Shown here: one piece after another, positions 24,363 through 50,633 of the stretch | How the letters are laid out: the number at the start of each line of letters is the position of its first letter | Numbering within the stretch: position 1 is the first letter of the stretch | Origin: Escherichia coli | Lineage (GTDB): Bacteria; Pseudomonadota; Gammaproteobacteria; Enterobacterales; Enterobacteriaceae | Length of the DNA: 64,000 bases | Reading direction: 5' to 3' (one strand) | Assembly: GCA_009729775.1 (NCBI GenBank) | Contig: GCA_009729775.1_4081.1 | The notes under the pieces: generated by a model | Databases searched by the model: none | Seen by the model: only the letters and a program-made list of their open reading frames with translations | Told to the model about the DNA's origin: nothing | Made by a program: the position numbers and the translations under genes

Positions 24363-25475
24363 TTAGAACATTTGTTTGATTGCTTCGTAACGAAGTTCAC
24401 AAACAAAATCACGAATTTCTGACGTTTCAAGTTCACCATCTTTGACCATTTGCTGAATATCAGGCAATTCAACATCAGTATAACGATCATAAACTTTAAT
24501 AATTAGATCTTCAAGTTCTAAATCAATTTCTTTTCGCAAAATGAAGTATTCCAAAACTTTATAAAGGAATTCTTCACCTCCGTTATTTTTAATATTCATA
24601 TCCAATAAAATATTACCCATTTCAATAGGGGTCTTTTTACGGAATGTTTTGATATCATCACGGAAACGTTTGATATAATTACTAAATTTAACATACTTAA
24701 CTGGAACTTTAATAGCACCGTTAAGTACTGAATCATTATTTACTTCTTCATTTTCAAGAAGAATAGACCACAGAAAATATGGTTTATATACATCCGTACA
24801 GTTCTCTGCAATATAATCAATAAGGTCTAAATTCTTTTTGGTCAAAGATGTATTAAACACCTTTTCGTAATAACCAAATTTACTTAGCGTCTTAAGGAAC
24901 TTTGCAGGCTTTTCTTCGGAAAATGCTTTTTCGAATTCCACAAAAACACGGTCAGGAACAAGATGATTTAGTTCACCACTATTGACCATTCCAATAGCGA
25001 GTTCCTCAGTGCTTTCATGGATAGTAAAGTCTGAATAACGAGTAGCAAATCGAGCAAGACGTAACACGCGTAATGGATCTTCTTTAAAATGGTCAGAAAC
25101 ATGACGTAGTATCTTGTTCTTGATATCAGCTTTACCACCGTATGGATCGATGTGAATTTGTAGTACTGGATCATACGCAATTGCATTAATTGTAAGGTCA
25201 CGGCGATACAAATCTTGTTCTAGTGTTACGCCTTTTGTATCCACTTCAAAGCCACCATATCCAGTACCAGTTTTACGCTCAGTACGGGCTAATGCGTGTT
25301 CATTACCTTCTGGACTTAGATATACTGGGAAATCCTTACCTACTTGCTTATAGCCAATACTTTGCAAGTACTTAAGATCAGATTCGGATGCACCAACAAT
25401 GACATAATCTTTGTCTTTTGCACGGATGCCCATTAAACGGTCACGGACGTAACCGCCAACCAAATACTTTTTCAT
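24363..25475 (-). CDS. CCA-adding tRNA nucleotidyltransferase / poly(A)-polymerase head-domain protein
   Basis: 370 aa; N-terminal LVGGYVRD...DKDY signature of class II CCA enzymes. Confidence 0.8.
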   Translation of the reverse strand: MKKYLVGGYVRDRLMGIRAKDKDYVIVGASESDLKYLQSIGYKQVGKDFPVYLSPEGNEHALARTERKTGTGYGGFEVDTKGVTLEQDLYRRDLTINAIAYDPVLQIHIDPYGGKADIKNKILRHVSDHFKEDPLRVLRLARFATRYSDFTIHESTEELAIGMVNSGELNHLVPDRVFVEFEKAFSEEKPAKFLKTLSKFGYYEKVFNTSLTKKNLDLIDYIAENCTDVYKPYFLWSILLENEEVNNDSVLNGAIKVPVKYVKFSNYIKRFRDDIKTFRKKTPIEMGNILLDMNIKNNGGEEFLYKVLEYFILRKEIDLELEDLIIKVYDRYTDVELPDIQQMVKDGELETSEIRDFVCELRYEAIKQMF

Positions 25476-25610: not shown

Positions 25611-26033
25611 TTAAATTAATCTATCACGTAGACGGTCGTAATATTTTTTGTGTATAGCTAGTATACACTGATATGCAGAATAGTCAATACCAAATGTATC
25701 ATCAATGAACATGTACTGATCAAGTGTTTCCGGTCCATTATCATCAACTGGTAATGTCCCTTCTTTTTTTGATAGTGTGTGCCACATCAACTCACTTTCA
25801 ATATGGTGAGTTGCGTATGTCAATTCTATCTTACTTTTTCGTAGTAAAATTAACAATTCATCATTGTCGTCGAGTGCATTACGAAATTTAATACGAACTG
25901 TACCCTGGAAATTATTAGTGTACATAACACGATGATGATTGTATGAAATCAAACCACGTCTTTCAGTACTGATTTCGTGTTCAGCAAAGTACTTTAACGT
26001 TTCATTAAATTTTGGAATTTTAGTAACGTCCAA
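25611..26033 (-). CDS. hypothetical protein (140 aa), paralog of next gene
   Basis: Shares IDDTFGIDYSAYQ block with 26020..26436 (IEDTFGIDFDTYQ). Confidence 0.5.
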   Translation of the reverse strand: MDVTKIPKFNETLKYFAEHEISTERRGLISYNHHRVMYTNNFQGTVRIKFRNALDDNDELLILLRKSKIELTYATHHIESELMWHTLSKKEGTLPVDDNGPETLDQYMFIDDTFGIDYSAYQCILAIHKKYYDRLRDRLI

Positions 26034-26436
26034 TCACATAATCCTCATAAAGTTCGTATACCCTCATTATACTCTGATATGTATCAAAGTCAATACCAAA
26101 GGTATCCTCAATGAACTGATATTGCAAAAACTCTTCCTCTGTAGCAGCAATAGGAAGAGTCCCGTTTCGTTGTTCTGTGGATTGAACATCCTCAATATAC
26201 ATCAACACTATACCTTCATCCAGATTTATATCTATCATAAAAACATCTTCACTATAAAATATGTTATATGTACGGATGAAGAGATTTCCTGTTCTATCAT
26301 AACTTGACACGTGTGTTTCATAATACATTTTATCTAAACTAAAGAACAAACCTGTACTATCTGGCTTTTTAGTATTTTTTAATTTAATTTCGATAGCATC
26401 AATAATAGGTTTAATATCAAATTTTTTCATAGACAA
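26020..26436 (-). CDS. hypothetical protein (138 aa), paralog of previous gene
   Basis: Paralog relationship as above. Confidence 0.5.
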   Translation of the reverse strand: MSMKKFDIKPIIDAIEIKLKNTKKPDSTGLFFSLDKMYYETHVSSYDRTGNLFIRTYNIFYSEDVFMIDINLDEGIVLMYIEDVQSTEQRNGTLPIAATEEEFLQYQFIEDTFGIDFDTYQSIMRVYELYEDYVIGRY

Positions 26437-26612
26437 ATCTCATATCGATTAGTGTTTGGATCATAGCAATAATTATCATTAACTTTAACACCAGGTTTAA
26501 GTGTTATTGTTGTTCCTACTTCAGTACTGGATTCCGCATCACAGTAAATCATCACACCAACTCCTGCGAGTAAGGCTACGATACATACAATTACACCAAT
26601 GGTATATTCCAT
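26427..26612 (-). CDS. small membrane protein (61 aa)
   Basis: One hydrophobic segment VIVCIVALLAGVGVMIY. Confidence 0.4.
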   Translation of the reverse strand: MEYTIGVIVCIVALLAGVGVMIYCDAESSTEVGTTITLKPGVKVNDNYCYDPNTNRYEICL

Positions 26613-26625
26613 TTCAATTCCTCGG

Positions 26626-27021
26626 TTATAAAAAGTAATTATACAGTTTATTGTACAATATAAAAAGGTCTTTCACATTATCATAAGTAATATCAGATAC
26701 ATCATGAATTAATGATAACTGAAAAAATGAAGCTTCGTCTATTTCTGCTGGAATTATAACATCACCATCGTCTTCGTCCATTTTATTAGTGTAGTATTTT
26801 ATGTGATCTACATTCAACTCAATAGAGAACGCAATGTTGGTTTTTGTATAATCTTCAATTAATCCAATATATTGAGATTTTTCATTAATAAAAAATCCAA
26901 TCCCAACACAACGGTTATCTGGATATGGATAGTACCATCTATTAATAACTAGGTGTTCAGGTAAGTCCATATCATGTGTTGATATTATAGATTTTACAAT
27001 TTCCATCCAGGAATAATTCAT
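26626..27021 (-). CDS. hypothetical protein (131 aa)
   Basis: ORF in track. Confidence 0.5.
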   Translation of the reverse strand: MNYSWMEIVKSIISTHDMDLPEHLVINRWYYPYPDNRCVGIGFFINEKSQYIGLIEDYTKTNIAFSIELNVDHIKYYTNKMDEDDGDVIIPAEIDEASFFQLSLIHDVSDITYDNVKDLFILYNKLYNYFL

Positions 27022-27074
27022 AATTAAAACTCCATAAGAAAAGGGACAGAATTAATCTGTCCCTTTAGTATATA

Positions 27075-27407
27075 TTACTCTTCGTTTTCTGTCAAATCAT
27101 CAAGAACTGGGTGTTCTGGATGGTTTCGGCGGTGTAATTTAATGCTTTTGTCTTTACTGAATACAGTTTCCATTTTTTCAAATGAATCACCAATTGCTTT
27201 GTATAAATCTGCTGCATCGGCAGTAACTGATTTACTACCTGATGTTAGAGTCACAGAGTATTGAGACTTATGCTCTTTCTTCACATGAACTTCAATATCC
27301 ATTACAGTTGAAGTACGGAACTTTTCAAGACATTTAGCACCATCGTAAATTGCATCTTGAATTGCTGTAGTAAAATCAACATTACCTTGAATATTTAATT
27401 TTAGCAT
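27075..27407 (-). CDS. ribosome hibernation factor homolog (HPF/RaiA/YfiA family)
   Basis: 110 aa; aligns by eye along full length with E. coli HPF/RaiA as recalled (LNIxGN..TxAI..KLE...TL...A.A..D.Y.AI....K.E..L.K.K). Confidence 0.7.
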   Translation of the reverse strand: MLKLNIQGNVDFTTAIQDAIYDGAKCLEKFRTSTVMDIEVHVKKEHKSQYSVTLTSGSKSVTADAADLYKAIGDSFEKMETVFSKDKSIKLHRRNHPEHPVLDDLTENEE

Positions 27408-27423
27408 AATTTACCTACCTTTT

Positions 27424-28383
27424 TTAGAGTGAACTTAACAACAAATCTGCTCGGTTTGTAACTTGACGATACCATAAGGAATTCATTATTTCTTTTTTAA
27501 ATTTCTTAGGGTTATCATTTTTTACACTGTTCCAAAGTTTATTAAACGAAGCTAACTTATCTACTCCCATTGTATAGCACATTTCAAAAAGAATACGTTG
27601 TTGTTCTTTGGTCAGATTTACTGCTTGTTTTTTCTGCATCAATAATAAAAAGTCATCATATGTTCTTTTCATATCTTGCATTAAAAGTTTGTTGGCTTGA
27701 GCTTTGGTAATACCGTTTCTGTACTTGATAGCATCAGATTCTTTTCTTCCCAAATAATGCCCATAACCGATTGTATAATTACCTTTCATATCCTTGTAAG
27801 GATGAAATTTAGAATTGTGGAAAGGAACTCCGACTTTCCCACCAAGTAAACGGCGTTTGTTCTTGGACTGAAATTCAATTGAACCTTCAGCTTCTTTGAT
27901 GTGATTGACAATTTCTGGATCATTATAATCAAACTGTACAGTCACATCTGGTAACAATACGTTCTTCAAATCCTCTTTTGTTGGGATAAAGATACCCTGA
28001 GAAGTATGAAGAGTAGCATTTAAATTGATATTTTTCAACAAAATAACATACTCTTCAAGTTGTACATTTTTAGGTTTAAACTTTTTAGCAATAGAATAAT
28101 AACTATCACCAGGTTGAACCGTATAATGCTTCTCGCCGCGTGGAACATCCTTTGATATTTCTACCTTTGGTAATTCCTGCTTTTGAATTTGCGTAACTTG
28201 TGGTTTTAAATTGTGTACCTGACTTTCGTCCGATGATGATACACGATCATTTTGAGAAAAACCATAAAATCCAATCGCAGCGACAAGTACTGTGCAAACT
28301 AGAACACCATAAGTAGTCTTAGTTTTCAGTGCTTTTTTCGCTTGTTTCAAAACGCCTCCTTTGTTGATTGTTAAGATGGGCAA
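27424..28383 (-). CDS. membrane-anchored LysM + T4-lysozyme-like (GH24) protein, endolysin candidate
   Basis: 319 aa; N-terminal hydrophobic segment; LysM (HYTVQPGDSYYSIAKKF); C-terminal GNYTIGYGH...lysozyme-like region resembling T4 e. Confidence 0.7.
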   Translation of the reverse strand: MPILTINKGGVLKQAKKALKTKTTYGVLVCTVLVAAIGFYGFSQNDRVSSSDESQVHNLKPQVTQIQKQELPKVEISKDVPRGEKHYTVQPGDSYYSIAKKFKPKNVQLEEYVILLKNINLNATLHTSQGIFIPTKEDLKNVLLPDVTVQFDYNDPEIVNHIKEAEGSIEFQSKNKRRLLGGKVGVPFHNSKFHPYKDMKGNYTIGYGHYLGRKESDAIKYRNGITKAQANKLLMQDMKRTYDDFLLLMQKKQAVNLTKEQQRILFEMCYTMGVDKLASFNKLWNSVKNDNPKKFKKEIMNSLWYRQVTNRADLLLSSL

Positions 28384-28518
28384 TCACAAAGATGGCAAAG
28401 AGGCCATTTGCAAAAGCCTCATCGGACTTTCTACAGTACAAAAACGTTCTTTTCAAATGTTTAAGTAGTATAGCATATTTTTATTTTATTACAAGACATA
28501 TTTACTGTAAAAACCACA

Positions 28519-28929
28519 TTAATCGTAGTAGGTTCTACCTACAGTTATGTGATATTTAAAGTACTTGGTTGGTAGTCCTAGTTCATTTCTAATATGTGTG
28601 ATGAAATCATCTTCAAATTCAATGATAAAGAATGAACCTGGATTCTTTTTATCTTTTACTATCTCAATACAAGGATTGAACTTTATCTTTACTTTCATTC
28701 CATCGTATTTTTTCCAGAACTCTTCATGTGGTGGTACTTCACCACGCACTATACTAACATGTGCTCCCCATTGAGGATCTTTAACGTCAATATGTAAATC
28801 AGTTCTGATGAAGTACTGGTAGTATCTAACCAACTGTAATGGAAGTTGCAGTACTAACCAGAAGTCCTTCTTCTTTTTCATAGTGCCACGGTCTGGATCA
28901 TACACCAGAGTTCCTTCCATTTCAATCAT
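28519..28929 (-). CDS. 2H phosphoesterase-superfamily protein (LigT-like)
   Basis: 136 aa; two H-x-[ST]-x motifs (AHVSIV and YHITVG) about 72 residues apart. Confidence 0.5.
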   Translation of the reverse strand: MIEMEGTLVYDPDRGTMKKKKDFWLVLQLPLQLVRYYQYFIRTDLHIDVKDPQWGAHVSIVRGEVPPHEEFWKKYDGMKVKIKFNPCIEIVKDKKNPGSFFIIEFEDDFITHIRNELGLPTKYFKYHITVGRTYYD

Positions 28930-33511: not shown

Positions 33512-33952
33512 TTATTGTAAAACTTTAAGTTTGTAAAGTACTCCTTCAACAAAACTCATAATATCTTCTAATGTGTTTACACTGCCGTAATCACCCGATT
33601 CTTCAAGCATATCATGAATTGCTCTGCATTGCTCAACATATTCTTCAAGAATTGGTACACAATCTTCAATTGGTGTAAAACGATAACTATTACCAGTCCC
33701 AACTTGCAAAGCACCACGATTATTCATGATACCTTCAACAAATGCGTCTACATATTCTGGTAATTCTTTATATAGTTCATCTAATTGTAAATGCTTTGTA
33801 TAAAAATGACATTGTAAGTGCCAGTTATGTGCAGCAGAACTTAAAAACAAACTATTTTCAATAAAAGTTAATAGTACTTCATCATATGAATTATCTTCTT
33901 CAGTACTTCCGATAAAGTCCATTACGTGTCGTAAATCATTAATATCTTCCAT
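33512..33952 (-). CDS. hypothetical protein (146 aa)
   Basis: ORF in track. Confidence 0.5.
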   Translation of the reverse strand: MEDINDLRHVMDFIGSTEEDNSYDEVLLTFIENSLFLSSAAHNWHLQCHFYTKHLQLDELYKELPEYVDAFVEGIMNNRGALQVGTGNSYRFTPIEDCVPILEEYVEQCRAIHDMLEESGDYGSVNTLEDIMSFVEGVLYKLKVLQ

Positions 33953-50625: not shown

Positions 50626-50633
50626 TATTTATA
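50626..50633 (-). promoter_or_regulatory. T4-type late promoter TATAAATA
   Basis: Exact TATAAATA on minus strand 35 nt upstream of ATG 50591, directly after nrdG terminator. Confidence 0.5.

What the first reader, a model, noticed from the sequence alone, without database searches (positions are those of the whole stretch)
27075..27407. Phage-encoded ribosome hibernation factor (HPF/RaiA) homolog
The 110-aa product matches, by eye along its whole length, the conserved pattern of bacterial HPF/RaiA (short form, with an acidic tail). A lytic phage carrying a factor that dimerises or silences ribosomes suggests direct manipulation of host translation.
Basis: partly seen in the sequence, partly recalled or inferred. 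Interest (0 to 1): 0.6.

Follow-up and report, generated by a model that had tools for sequence, protein, structure and literature searches.

The report
Jumbo phage RaiA-like ribosome factor
This 110-residue gene of a 121Q-type jumbo coliphage is a genuine but very divergent relative of the bacterial HPF/RaiA proteins that silence idle ribosomes; public records already annotate it that way and a 2019 paper reported phage versions, so the call is correct but not new, and its role in infection is still untested.

Summary
The ORF is real: window 27075-27407, minus strand, 110 aa. It passes the Pfam Ribosomal_S30AE threshold (37.4 bits against a cut-off of 23.7). Its AlphaFold model has the beta-alpha-beta-beta-beta-alpha fold plus a disordered acidic tail. 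The 38 best PDB fold matches are all HPF/RaiA/pY; the best is E. coli HPF (TM 0.82, rmsd 1.9 A).

It is not new. The protein is 100% identical to 121Q gp533, which RefSeq names "HPF/RaiA family ribosome-associated protein". Its positional ortholog in phage GAP32 was reported as a phage HPF by Mizuno et al. 2019.

New here:
- The gene is inherited vertically across RaK2-like jumbo phages in a fixed order: lysozyme, S30AE gene, terminator, then further on the CCA-adding enzyme.
- It is under purifying selection (dN/dS 0.14-0.27).
- Every ortholog has a RaiA-like C-terminal extension of about 15-22 residues ending in acidic residues.
- No phage record encodes RMF.

Most likely it binds the decoding centre of vacant host ribosomes as RaiA does. 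Ribosome binding, timing and benefit are inferred.

Side observation: a conserved structured leader that masks the Shine-Dalgarno sequence of the upstream lysozyme gene.

The parts
27075..27407 (-). CDS of the HPF/RaiA-family protein (110 aa plus TAA stop); 100% identical to 121Q gp533
   Evidence: ORF list; Pfam PF02482 37.4 bits above the 23.7 cut-off; tblastn 100% identity to 121Q and SHEFM2K; RefSeq annotation
27123..27407 (-). Folded S30AE domain, residues 1-95 (beta1 2-8, alpha1 14-30, beta2 36-46, beta3 49-56, beta4 59-65, alpha2 68-94)
   Evidence: AlphaFold2 model, mean pLDDT 77 and 80-90 over residues 1-80; Foldseek top 38 PDB hits all HPF/RaiA/pY, with 6h4n_x at TM 0.82 and rmsd 1.9
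27078..27122 (-). C-terminal extension, residues 96-110 (HPEHPVLDDLTENEE): disordered with an acidic end, RaiA-like in length and composition
   Evidence: pLDDT below 50 for residues 96-110. All orthologs in five or six genera extend about 15-22 residues beyond the end of E. coli HPF and end in D/E clusters, as RaiA does. In RaiA this extension reaches the RMF site (PMC7913689)
27168..27407 (-). Divergent allele cassette (codons 1-80): 73-83% nt identity to phage G17, while the last 93 nt of the gene and both flanks are about 100% identical
   Evidence: Binned pairwise identity; dS 0.58 for this gene against 0.01-0.07 in neighbours, with dN/dS 0.14
27413..27420 (-). Shine-Dalgarno sequence of the HPF-like gene (AGGTAGGT, 5 nt before the ATG); the gap to the lysozyme stop codon is only 16 nt
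   Evidence: Sequence; an equivalent AAGGAG-type site is present in all orthologs
27033..27066 (-). Intrinsic terminator directly after the stop codon (AAAGGGACAG-ATTAATT-CTGTCCCTTT, then UCUUAUG)
   Evidence: Scan found the palindromic hairpin; annotated as a terminator (-14.7 kcal/mol, ARNold) in G17; an equivalent hairpin plus U-tract follows the gene in EJP2, Hallingskeid, Munch, GAP32, CBB, Yen9-04 and Serratia BF
27067..27095 (-). Sigma-70-type promoter-like element (TTGACA-17-TATACT, 11 of 12 matches) overlapping the 3' end of the CDS and firing into the terminator hairpin; presumably serves the downstream gene
   Evidence: Best-scoring site of the scan, although the number of sites in the region does not exceed the shuffles. 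The same arrangement (TTGACA-17-TACATT, then the hairpin) occurs in GAP32, CBB, Yen9-04 and Serratia BF. Function not shown
27424..28350 (-). Upstream co-oriented gene: membrane-anchored LysM plus phage-lysozyme protein (TTG start as annotated in 121Q), probably co-transcribed with the HPF-like gene
   Evidence: Pfam Phage_lysozyme 45.4 bits and LysM 24.5 bits; 121Q gp532; no terminator between the two genes; adjacency conserved across genera
28351..28436 (-). Conserved structured 5' leader of the lysozyme/HPF-like gene pair. It has an invariant core UGUAGAAAGUCC (28424-28435), an anti-SD segment (28381-28396) able to pair with the lysozyme SD region (28354-28370), and a competing upstream strand (28403-28413)
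   Evidence: Alignments A2 and A4; per-lineage folds; duplex energies against shuffles; pair counts; no Rfam family matched

Best explanation
The ORF encodes a divergent single-domain member of the HPF/RaiA (Ribosomal_S30AE) family with RaiA-like architecture: the S30AE fold plus a short disordered C-terminal extension that ends in acidic residues. It was inherited vertically within the RaK2-like jumbo phages.

Proposed mechanism: like RaiA/pY, it docks into the 30S decoding centre (A/P sites) of host ribosomes that carry no mRNA or tRNA. Contact would be through basic residues on alpha1, alpha2 and the beta-sheet, and its tail would point toward the mRNA-exit and anti-SD region, where RMF binds. 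The expected result is idle 70S ribosomes held as inactive, nuclease-shielded monomers, with the host's RMF/HPF-driven 100S pathway out-competed. In this way the phage, rather than the starving or defending host, would set the state of the ribosome pool.

The gene has its own SD and is probably transcribed together with the upstream lysozyme gene, ending at a conserved terminator.

Shown here: family membership, fold, tail architecture, purifying selection, synteny, terminator. Inferred: ribosome binding, binding site, role of the tail, timing of expression, benefit to the phage.
For: Family and fold:
- Pfam PF02482 above threshold.
- The AF2 topology matches HPF exactly.
- The top 38 PDB fold hits are all HPF/RaiA/pY, many solved on ribosomes.
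- The BFVD search matches GAP32 S30EA at TM 0.82.

Conserved residues:
- The D-[LM]-Y signature at the start of alpha2, plus K29 and K87, are near-invariant across 18 phage orthologs and both E. coli proteins.
- Within the genus the invariant residues are enriched in basic positions on beta2 (VHVKKEHK), K59, and alpha2 (K70, K78, K85, K87, R94).
- These are the same elements that contact h44, h31 and the 1382-1384 region of 16S rRNA in a solved complex (RafH, PMC10799931).

Other support:
- Overall charge and pI (5.7) resemble E. coli HPF (6.5) and RaiA (6.2).
- Every ortholog has a RaiA-like extension with an acidic end, and the RaiA extension is what reaches the RMF site (PMC7913689).
- No RMF homolog exists in 50,697 phage records.
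- dN/dS is 0.14-0.27.
- The lysozyme-S30AE-terminator arrangement is conserved across Asterius-, Mimas- and Eneladusvirus, Munch-like phages and Erwinia phages.
- The neighbourhood is rich in RNA and translation maintenance genes: CCA-adding enzyme, a 2H-phosphoesterase-like protein, and Nudix.
Against: There is no experimental evidence for this lineage. The only phage HPF tested (rV5, a separate lineage about 43% identical to E. coli HPF) was absent from salt-washed 70S/100S ribosomes and had no effect on 100S formation (Mizuno 2019). The protein is very divergent: 26% and 23% identity to E. coli HPF and RaiA, and below the NCBIfam equivalog cut-offs (TIGR00741 30.0 against 40.9; HPF PRK10470 18.3 against 125). 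Two arginines common in cellular members are replaced in this genus: the R of the 'AIR' motif on alpha1 becomes Q/H/N, and the R of 'KLERQ' on alpha2 becomes T. The alpha1 Lys25 is not conserved within the clade. The tail resembles RaiA only in length and composition, not in alignable sequence. The timing of expression is unknown, since no Asteriusvirus transcriptome was found. A factor that silences ribosomes has no obvious benefit for a lytic phage, so the physiological rationale is speculative.
Confidence: 0.6

Rival explanations
1. It works like E. coli HPF rather than RaiA. Together with host RMF it promotes or stabilises 100S ribosome dimers, putting host ribosomes into full hibernation during infection.
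For: By sequence it is marginally closer to E. coli HPF than to RaiA: blastp 26% identity (E 1e-6) against 23% (E 1e-4), and clade HMM 56.7 against 47.2 bits. The best structural superposition is on HPF from the E. coli 100S ribosome (6h4n_x, TM 0.82). Host RMF would be available in slow-growing cells.
Against: All orthologs carry a C-terminal extension, the feature that distinguishes RaiA from HPF and is thought to clash with RMF (PMC7913689). No phage encodes RMF. The rV5 phage HPF had no effect on 100S. The differences in sequence score are small for proteins this divergent.
Confidence: 0.15
2. It keeps the S30AE fold but no longer acts on the decoding centre. It would have been repurposed, for example as a binder of another RNA or protein, or as a decoy for a host factor or defence system that recognises HPF/RaiA.
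For: The clade is isolated in sequence space. Only 38 of 1.84 billion representative proteins reach E<=1e-3, and none outside the phage clade is better than 1e-9. Several basic residues common in cellular homologs are substituted. The rV5 HPF did not bind ribosomes under stringent washing. The folded domain is an allele cassette exchanged between otherwise near-identical phages, a pattern often seen for host-interaction genes.
Against: The residues that are invariant in the clade are the family signature (D-L-Y-x-A-I) and the basic patches on beta2 and alpha2, which contact rRNA in solved complexes. dN/dS is well below 1, with no sign of diversifying selection. The elevated dS shows that the cassette reflects recombination, not rapid adaptive change. 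No alternative partner is suggested by any search.
Confidence: 0.2
3. It is not an HPF-type protein at all but a dodecin-like flavin-binding protein, or a 'sigma-54 modulation protein' acting on transcription, as older annotations state.
For: Pfam Dodecin hit, E 2.2e-4 over residues 12-55, and weak NCBIfam dodecin hits. Many GenBank records label the gene 'putative sigma 54' or 'sigma 54 modulation protein'.
Against: The Dodecin score (21.9) is below its cut-off (22.5), covers only 44 residues, and is outscored by S30AE over 83 residues. No dodecin appears among the top 50 fold matches. 'Sigma-54 modulation protein' is the historical name of the same S30AE family, taken from its position in the rpoN operon. 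It is not a separate function (established knowledge of the family; the Pfam description carries both names).
Confidence: 0.02

Closest known systems
E. coli RaiA (YfiA, protein Y)
   Same: Single S30AE domain with the beta-alpha-beta-beta-beta-alpha fold. Similar length (110 against 113 aa). A C-terminal extension beyond the HPF core with a basic start and an acidic end. Similar pI. The D-[LM]-Y-x-A-I signature is kept.
   Different: Only 23% identity. The tail cannot be aligned with the RaiA tail. It falls below the NCBIfam HPF/YfiA equivalog cut-off. It is encoded by a lytic jumbo phage next to a lysozyme gene, not under host stationary-phase or cold-shock control. Ribosome binding is untested.
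E. coli HPF (YhbH), short form
   Same: Same fold, and the best structural superposition (6h4n_x, TM 0.82, rmsd 1.9). It is the closest solved sequence (4v8h), with 26% identity.
   Different: HPF is 95 aa with no tail and works with RMF to mature 100S dimers. The phage protein has a 15-residue tail, and no phage encodes RMF.
Cronobacter phage GAP32 gp183, 'sigma 54 modulation protein/ribosomal protein S30EA' (phage HPF of Mizuno et al. 2019)
   Same: Positional ortholog: lysozyme, then S30AE, terminator, and further on the CCA-adding enzyme. Same fold (BFVD K4F6Q6, TM 0.82). It also ends in an acidic tail and has the same conserved leader upstream of the lysozyme gene.
   Different: Only about 21% identical. 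Two HNH endonuclease genes are inserted between the lysozyme and S30AE genes in GAP32.
rV5-like (Vequintavirinae) phage HPF/RaiA homologs
   Same: Phage-encoded single-domain S30AE proteins of coliphages, annotated as RaiA/HPF. This is the only phage HPF tested experimentally.
   Different: A separate and much less divergent lineage, about 43% identical to E. coli HPF. It is not detected with the window protein as query, and the window lineage is not detected with E. coli HPF as query. The genomes differ (about 137 kb) and so does the gene context.
Long HPF of Firmicutes, Thermus and mycobacteria (e.g. S. aureus HPF, RafH)
   Same: The N-terminal S30AE domain is homologous and superposes (8uu7_w is the top Foldseek hit by E-value, 29% identity).
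   Different: The window protein has no C-terminal dimerisation domain. It is 110 aa, and everything beyond residue 95 is predicted disordered.

Membership tests
HPF/RaiA family (Pfam PF02482 Ribosomal_S30AE) | Significant match to the family profile above the curated gathering score | tested here: met
   37.4 bits against 23.7, E 4.2e-9, covering 83 of 88 profile positions. All homologs from the word-indexed search carry PF02482 except one truncated protein.
HPF/RaiA family (Pfam PF02482 Ribosomal_S30AE) | beta-alpha-beta-beta-beta-alpha fold superposable on solved HPF/RaiA structures | tested here: met
   AF2 elements E2-8, H14-30, E36-46, E49-56, E59-65, H68-94. Foldseek top 38 PDB hits are all HPF/RaiA/pY, with TM up to 0.82.
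HPF/RaiA family (Pfam PF02482 Ribosomal_S30AE) | Conserved D-[LM]-Y-x-[AS]-[IV] signature at the N-terminus of helix alpha2 | tested here: met
   D67-L68-Y69-K70-A71-I72. Y69 is invariant and D67 near-invariant across 18 phage orthologs plus E. coli HPF and RaiA.
HPF/RaiA family (Pfam PF02482 Ribosomal_S30AE) | Basic surface on alpha1, alpha2 and the beta-sheet that contacts 16S rRNA (h44, h31, 1400 region) | tested here: inconclusive
   Conserved basic residues are present on beta2 (K43, K44, K47), beta4 (K59) and alpha2 (K70, K78, K85, K87, K90, R93, R94), plus K29 on alpha1. These match the elements that make contact in RafH. However, the alpha1 'AIR' arginine and the alpha2 'KLERQ' arginine are substituted, and K25 varies. 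No docking or electrostatics calculation was possible.
HPF/RaiA family (Pfam PF02482 Ribosomal_S30AE) | Binds the 30S decoding centre and inhibits translation | not testable with these tools
   Needs biochemistry or cryo-EM. The only phage homolog tested (rV5 lineage) was negative under high-salt washing.
RaiA (YfiA/pY) subtype | Single domain plus a short C-terminal extension (about 18 residues) beyond the HPF core | tested here: met
   15 residues beyond helix alpha2, disordered, ending in DDLTENEE. An equivalent extension is present in all orthologs. The RaiA definition comes from PMC7913689.
RaiA (YfiA/pY) subtype | Equivalog-level sequence match (NCBIfam TIGR00741 HPF/YfiA) | tested here: not met
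   30.0 bits against a cut-off of 40.9. It should therefore be filed as a family member, not as an ortholog of E. coli RaiA.
RaiA (YfiA/pY) subtype | The tail blocks RMF binding, so 70S monomers form instead of 100S | not testable with these tools
   Inferred only from tail architecture and the absence of a phage RMF.
Short HPF (YhbH) subtype | About 95 aa with no C-terminal extension; equivalog match (NCBIfam PRK10470); works with RMF | tested here: not met
   110 aa with a tail; 18.3 bits against a cut-off of 125; no RMF in any phage record at E<=1.
Long HPF | C-terminal dimerisation domain after a linker (about 180-220 aa in total) | tested here: not met
   The protein ends at residue 110, there is no second domain in the Pfam scan, and the tail is disordered.
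Dodecin | Profile match above threshold and the dodecin fold | tested here: not met
   21.9 bits against 22.5, 44 residues only. No dodecin among the top 50 fold matches.

The most novel reading that the evidence does not exclude
The RaK2-like jumbo phages may carry an ancestral two-gene module in which one transcript encodes a masked endolysin and an unmasked RaiA mimic. A conserved three-helix leader hides the lysozyme's Shine-Dalgarno sequence, while the downstream HPF-like gene has its own free SD. The phage could then make the ribosome factor early or conditionally, for instance to block host RMF/HPF hibernation or to shield rRNA from defence nucleases in starved cells, and release lysozyme translation only later. 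That would be a phage-specific use of a hibernation factor coupled to a previously undescribed cis-regulatory RNA.
Probability: 0.15. Interest if true: 0.65.

Novelty: already known. Interest (0 to 1): 0.3.

Why it matters
Phage-encoded hibernation-factor homologs are one of the few hints that phages act directly on the state of the host ribosome pool, yet none has a demonstrated function, and the single test (rV5) was negative. This lineage is a good experimental target. It is ancient within a large clade of jumbo phages, is under purifying selection, is RaiA-like rather than HPF-like, and infects E. coli K-12, where rmf, hpf and raiA mutants and ribosome structural methods already exist. If it binds the ribosome, it would show whether a lytic phage benefits from silencing, protecting or de-hibernating ribosomes. 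That is relevant to infection of stationary-phase cells and to phage therapy. As a sequence finding, however, it repeats existing annotation.

Tried and rejected
1. **Dodecin reading.** The Pfam and NCBIfam hits are sub-threshold and partial, with no fold support. Rejected.
2. **Poxvirus D5/OPG117 hits.** These phmmer hits (E 0.007-0.035) have no fold support. Treated as chance.
3. **P0011 from the exhaustive search** (E 2.8e-37, 29 stretches). It is a 29-copy tandem-repeat protein whose weak per-repeat scores add up. Artefact.
4. **Fast adaptive evolution.** The idea came from 84% protein identity inside flanks that are 96% identical in nucleotides. Rejected: dS is equally elevated (0.58) and dN/dS is 0.14, so the cause is an exchanged allele cassette.
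5. **Truncated genes in four Salmonella 'SD' phages as evidence that the gene is dispensable.** Rejected. Each record has deletions of different lengths at the same two hypervariable segments, and these also break the lysozyme and other genes. This points to assembly collapse.
6. **Phage RMF partner.** None found.
7. **Leader core as a repeated promoter or known RNA.** It is unique in the window. There is no Rfam match at E<=1. The one extra match in IMG/VR lies inside a coding ORF of an unrelated phage.
8. **T4-type late promoter (TATAAATA/ATAAATA) between anti-SD and SD, as in T4 gene e.** Not present.
9. **Transcriptome or proteome data for Asteriusvirus.** None found. The phAPEC6 virion proteome paper does not mention the protein.
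10. **Column-based covariation across all genera.** It failed because MAFFT misaligns the variable helices. Per-lineage duplex energies and a clean subset were used instead.
Full report
**Observation.** The window holds an ATG-initiated ORF of 110 codons at 27075-27407 on the minus strand. An AGGTAGGT Shine-Dalgarno sequence lies 5 nt upstream, and only 16 nt separate the ORF from the stop codon of the preceding gene.

The product matches Pfam Ribosomal_S30AE (PF02482) at E 4.2e-9. The score is 37.4 bits against a gathering score of 23.7, over residues 5-87 and 83 of the 88 profile positions. Against PDB sequences the best match is E. coli HPF (4v8h, E 8e-4), followed by Thermus, Vibrio, Listeria and Bacillus HPF/RaiA chains.

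Weaker signals were a sub-threshold Dodecin hit (21.9 bits against 22.5, 44 residues) and NCBIfam equivalog models that the protein does not reach: TIGR00741 at 30.0 against 40.9, and PRK10470 at 18.3 against 125. The match is real, but the protein is divergent.

**Structure.** An AlphaFold2 model built on ten close homologs has mean pLDDT 77, with 80-90 over residues 1-80. Its elements are beta 2-8, alpha 14-30, beta 36-46, beta 49-56, beta 59-65 and alpha 68-94. Residues 96-110 are disordered.

Foldseek against the PDB returns HPF, RaiA or pY chains in all of the first 38 places, most of them solved on ribosomes. The best superposition is E. coli HPF in the 100S particle (6h4n_x, TM 0.82, rmsd 1.9 A over 97 columns). 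The viral structure library returns the PBECO4 ortholog, named 'Ribosomal subunit interface protein', and GAP32's S30EA protein (TM 0.82 at 17% identity).

**Source genome and prior knowledge.** The surrounding 3 kb is 98.5% identical to Escherichia phage 121Q, and 36 records of 121Q/PBECO4-type jumbo phages (genus Asteriusvirus, about 350 kb) match it. The protein is 100% identical to 121Q gp533 (YP_009102120.1), which RefSeq names 'HPF/RaiA family ribosome-associated protein'. Other records call it 'ribosome-associated inhibitor A', 'ribosome hibernation promoting factor' or 'sigma 54 modulation protein/S30EA'.

The Sharanji genome paper lists it among translation-related genes (PMC11895373). 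Mizuno et al. 2019 described phage-encoded HPF in rV5-like phages and in the jumbo phage GAP32. They proposed that viral HPF might compete with host factors to prevent ribosome dimers. They also found that rV5 HPF, although expressed, was absent from salt-washed 70S/100S ribosomes and did not change 100S levels (PMC6375957).

At least 130 phage records carry the rV5-type gene, which is about 43% identical to E. coli HPF. As a sequence finding, therefore, this one is already known.

**Lineage.** The window protein belongs to a separate and much more divergent lineage. E. coli HPF used as a tblastn query does not detect it, and it does not detect the rV5 type.

An exhaustive profile search of 1.84 billion representative proteins found only 38 hits at E<=1e-3. 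The nearest proteins outside the genus (about 1e-9) come from Munch-like Salmonella and Klebsiella jumbo phages.

Gene order shows these to be orthologs. The order is LysM/lysozyme, then S30AE, a terminator, one to four small ORFs, the CCA-adding enzyme, Nudix, and glutaredoxin. It recurs in the following groups:
- Asteriusvirus (121Q, G17, A4, vB_Ec-M-J, Turkey5, EJP2)
- Erwinia phages Hallingskeid and Kaldavass
- Salmonella phage Munch
- Mimasvirus (GAP32, CBB, XbC2)
- Eneladusvirus (Yersinia fHe-Yen9-04, Serratia BF)

RaK2 itself has lysozyme, ORF030 and then the CCA gene, without the S30AE gene. The GAP32 'HPF' of Mizuno et al. is therefore the positional ortholog of this gene. The gene is old in this supergroup rather than a recent capture from the host.

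**Selection and mosaicism.** Within the genus, dN/dS is 0.14-0.27, similar to the lysozyme (0.11-0.17) and the CCA enzyme (0.09-0.35).

One pattern looked odd. Phage G17 is about 100% identical in the flanks, but its protein is only 84% identical. The divergence is confined to codons 1-80 (window 27168-27407, 73-83% nucleotide identity), while the last 93 nt and both flanks are identical. dS there is 0.58, against 0.01-0.07 in the neighbouring genes. This is an exchanged allele cassette under purifying selection, not rapid adaptive change.

Four Salmonella 'SD' phage records appear to have internal deletions in the gene. All four have deletions of different lengths at the same two hypervariable segments, and their lysozyme genes are also broken. 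I read these as assembly artefacts and drew no conclusion from them.

**HPF or RaiA?** In E. coli, RaiA is HPF plus a C-terminal extension of about 18 residues that reaches into the RMF site and disfavours 100S formation (PMC7913689). The window protein is 110 aa, against 95 for HPF and 113 for RaiA. It has a disordered tail that starts basic (HRRNH) and ends acidic (DDLTENEE).

In an alignment of 18 phage orthologs from five or six genera, every one extends about 15-22 residues past the end of E. coli HPF and ends in an acidic cluster, as RaiA does. Within the Asterius, Munch and Erwinia branches the C-terminus follows the pattern hydrophobic-T-[DE]-x-[DE]-E. No RMF homolog exists in any phage record at E<=1.

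Sequence similarity does not discriminate. It is 26% to HPF and 23% to RaiA, and the clade HMM gives 56.7 against 47.2 bits. The architecture is RaiA-like. The protein is a family member but not an equivalog of either E. coli protein.

**Residues.** Across phages and E. coli, Y69 is invariant, and I6, L27, K29, D67, E80 and K87 are near-invariant. Within the genus the invariant set includes VHVKKEHK on beta2, K59 on beta4, and K70, K78, K85, K87 and R94 on alpha2.

In the RafH-ribosome structure, basic residues of alpha1 contact h44, an arginine patch on alpha2 contacts 16S nucleotides C1382-G1384, and basic residues of beta2-beta4 contact h31 (PMC10799931). The conserved basic positions of the phage protein fall on the same elements, which is consistent with retained ribosome binding.

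Against this, the arginine of the common 'AIR' motif on alpha1 is Q/H/N in this genus. The arginine of 'KLERQ' on alpha2 is T. K25 varies. I could not dock the model, so this feature stays inconclusive.

**Expression context.** The upstream gene encodes a protein with an N-terminal hydrophobic segment, a LysM domain and a phage-lysozyme domain. It was not detected in the phAPEC6 virion, and some records annotate it as the endolysin. No terminator separates it from the S30AE gene.

A GC-rich hairpin plus U-tract follows the S30AE stop codon (27033-27066). Equivalent terminators follow the gene in every genus examined. A sigma-70-type promoter-like element, TTGACA-17-TATACT at 27067-27095, overlaps the 3' end of the gene and points into that hairpin. 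The same arrangement occurs in Mimasvirus and Eneladusvirus. The number of promoter-like sites in the region does not exceed chance, so only the positional conservation counts as evidence.

For this phage group the literature predicts RpoD-like early promoters, a variant class, and T4-like late ATAAATA promoters (CBB paper, PMC5259590). No transcriptome for the genus was found, so timing is unknown.

**Mechanism proposed.** Shown here: family membership, fold, RaiA-like tail, purifying selection, vertical inheritance, own SD, terminator.

Inferred: the protein occupies the A/P-site region of vacant host 30S/70S ribosomes, as RaiA does, with the tail directed to the RMF and anti-SD region. It thereby holds idle ribosomes as inactive, nuclease-shielded 70S monomers and out-competes host RMF/HPF. 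I put this at about 0.6.

Rivals:
- HPF-like promotion of 100S with host RMF (about 0.15)
- Loss of ribosome binding with repurposing of the fold (about 0.2; suggested by the rV5 result, the isolation of the clade and the substituted arginines)
- The dodecin and sigma-54 readings (about 0.02)

Why a lytic phage would want such a factor is open. The neighbourhood (CCA-adding enzyme, a 2H-phosphoesterase-like protein, Nudix, macro domain) hints at maintenance or protection of the translation apparatus, but this is only context.

**Side observation: a structured leader.** Upstream of the lysozyme gene lies an 86-nt leader (window 28351-28436, minus strand). Its core UGUAGAAAGUCC is invariant from Asteriusvirus to Munch, and is kept with one substitution in XbC2 among Mimasvirus/Eneladusvirus. 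RaK2 has a diverged version. This holds although the lysozyme proteins are only 49-60% identical. In 22 Asteriusvirus records the leader is at least 99% identical, including phages whose surrounding 3 kb is only about 91% identical.

In almost every lineage the minimum-energy fold pairs the lysozyme SD region with an upstream anti-SD segment, and the sequence of that segment differs between lineages:
- window: GCCAUCUUUGUGAUUG with CAAUCAACAAAGGAGGC
- EJP2: CUCCUGUUGCU with AGCAAAUAGGAG
- GAP32: CCUUAUUAUGCA with UGUAAAAUAAGG

A further upstream strand can pair with the same anti-SD instead.

The SD-masking duplex is stronger than in dinucleotide shuffles in 10 of 14 lineages (p<=0.04). In the cleanly aligned Mimasvirus/Eneladusvirus subset, 96% of cells are paired, against 36-66% when the partner strand is slid, and two pairs show compensatory changes. 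The shuffle control is not decisive, however: 47 of 500 shuffles reach the observed covariation score.

No Rfam family matches, and the core motif is unique in the window. The lysozyme start codon is TTG or GTG everywhere except RaK2.

This resembles the masking of the SD of T4 lysozyme gene e, and of soc, 49 and I-TevI, in early read-through transcripts (PMC3014915). Unlike T4, no T4-type late promoter lies between the anti-SD and the SD here. Because the S30AE gene has its own unmasked SD on the same presumed transcript, the two proteins could be uncoupled in time. That is speculation.

**Verdict.** It is already annotated and its class is published, so its novelty is 'already known' and its interest is modest (0.3). 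What remains open, and testable, is whether and how this RaiA-like phage protein acts on host ribosomes.

Noticed in passing
window 28351-28436 (minus strand); also L002-L008, L014-L020 upstream of the lysozyme genes: A conserved structured 5' leader lies upstream of the lysozyme/HPF-like gene pair. Its core UGUAGAAAGUCC is invariant from Asteriusvirus to Munch-like phages and kept with one substitution (XbC2) in Mimas-/Eneladusvirus; RaK2 has a diverged version. An anti-SD:SD helix changes sequence between lineages but keeps its pairing, and a competing upstream strand could form instead. There is no Rfam match. The logic resembles T4 gene e, but no late promoter lies inside the structure. 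This may be an undescribed cis-regulatory RNA.
   Followed up: partly
window 28348-28350 (minus strand) and orthologous positions: The lysozyme gene starts with a weak TTG or GTG codon in 13 of 14 lineages examined; only RaK2 has ATG. This fits tightly limited translation of a lysis enzyme.
   Followed up: no
window 27168-27407: Codons 1-80 of the HPF-like gene form a recombination cassette. Identity to phage G17 is 73-83% in nucleotides, while the rest of the gene and both flanks are about 100% identical. dS is 0.58 against 0.01-0.07 in neighbouring genes, with dN/dS 0.14. A second short divergent patch lies at 26568-26627.
   Followed up: yes
window 27033-27095 (minus strand): A terminator hairpin and a sigma-70-type promoter-like element (TTGACA-17-TATACT) are nested, so that the promoter would start transcription at the hairpin. 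The same module follows the S30AE gene in GAP32, CBB, Yen9-04 and Serratia BF.
   Followed up: partly
window 28519-28929 (minus strand): The homolog of 121Q gp531, annotated as hypothetical, has two H-x-T/S motifs (HVSIV and HITVG) and a near-threshold match to the 2H phosphoesterase domain (PF22547, 26.0 bits against 27). With the CCA-adding enzyme at 24363-25475 this gives the region an RNA-repair flavour.
   Followed up: partly
window 25611-26033 and 26020-26436 (minus strand); weaker, 26626-27021: The small ORFs between the HPF-like gene and the CCA gene are tandem paralogs of about 135 aa, 41% identical over their C-terminal 54 residues (E 6.5e-11). They share a Y-x-F-I-[ED]-D...Y-D-x-Y motif and are related to RaK2 ORF030 and Munch gp217/218. 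They have no Pfam family.
   Followed up: partly
whole window: The T4 late-promoter octamer TATAAATA occurs once (50626-50633, minus strand), against 11.3 +/- 3.6 expected from shuffles. The shorter ATAAATA occurs 8 times on the minus (coding) strand and 2 times on the plus strand. This depletion may reflect use of the motif as a late promoter in this phage group.
   Followed up: no
window 33512-33922 (minus strand): The homolog of 121Q gp518, annotated 'starvation-inducible DNA-binding protein', matches DUF5856 strongly (98.6 bits) but the ferritin-like domain only weakly (18.6 against 24.5). The Dps-like label is poorly supported. The 121Q annotation also lists PhoH-, ClpP-, HslV- and Sir2-like genes further along this window.
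   Followed up: partly
L023-L026 (Salmonella phages SD-15_S21, SD-1_S14, SD-6_S16, SD-2_S15): All four records have deletions of different lengths at the same two hypervariable segments (window 27198-27399 and about 25665-26484), and their lysozyme genes are fragmented. This looks like assembly collapse at divergent alleles rather than real gene loss.
   Followed up: yes
L015 (Klebsiella phage RaK2) 3438-3890: RaK2 and its relatives keep the lysozyme, the leader (in diverged form) and the CCA gene, but have no S30AE gene between them. Only a member of the small paralog family is there. The gene was therefore lost, or never gained, in Alcyoneusvirus.
   Followed up: partly
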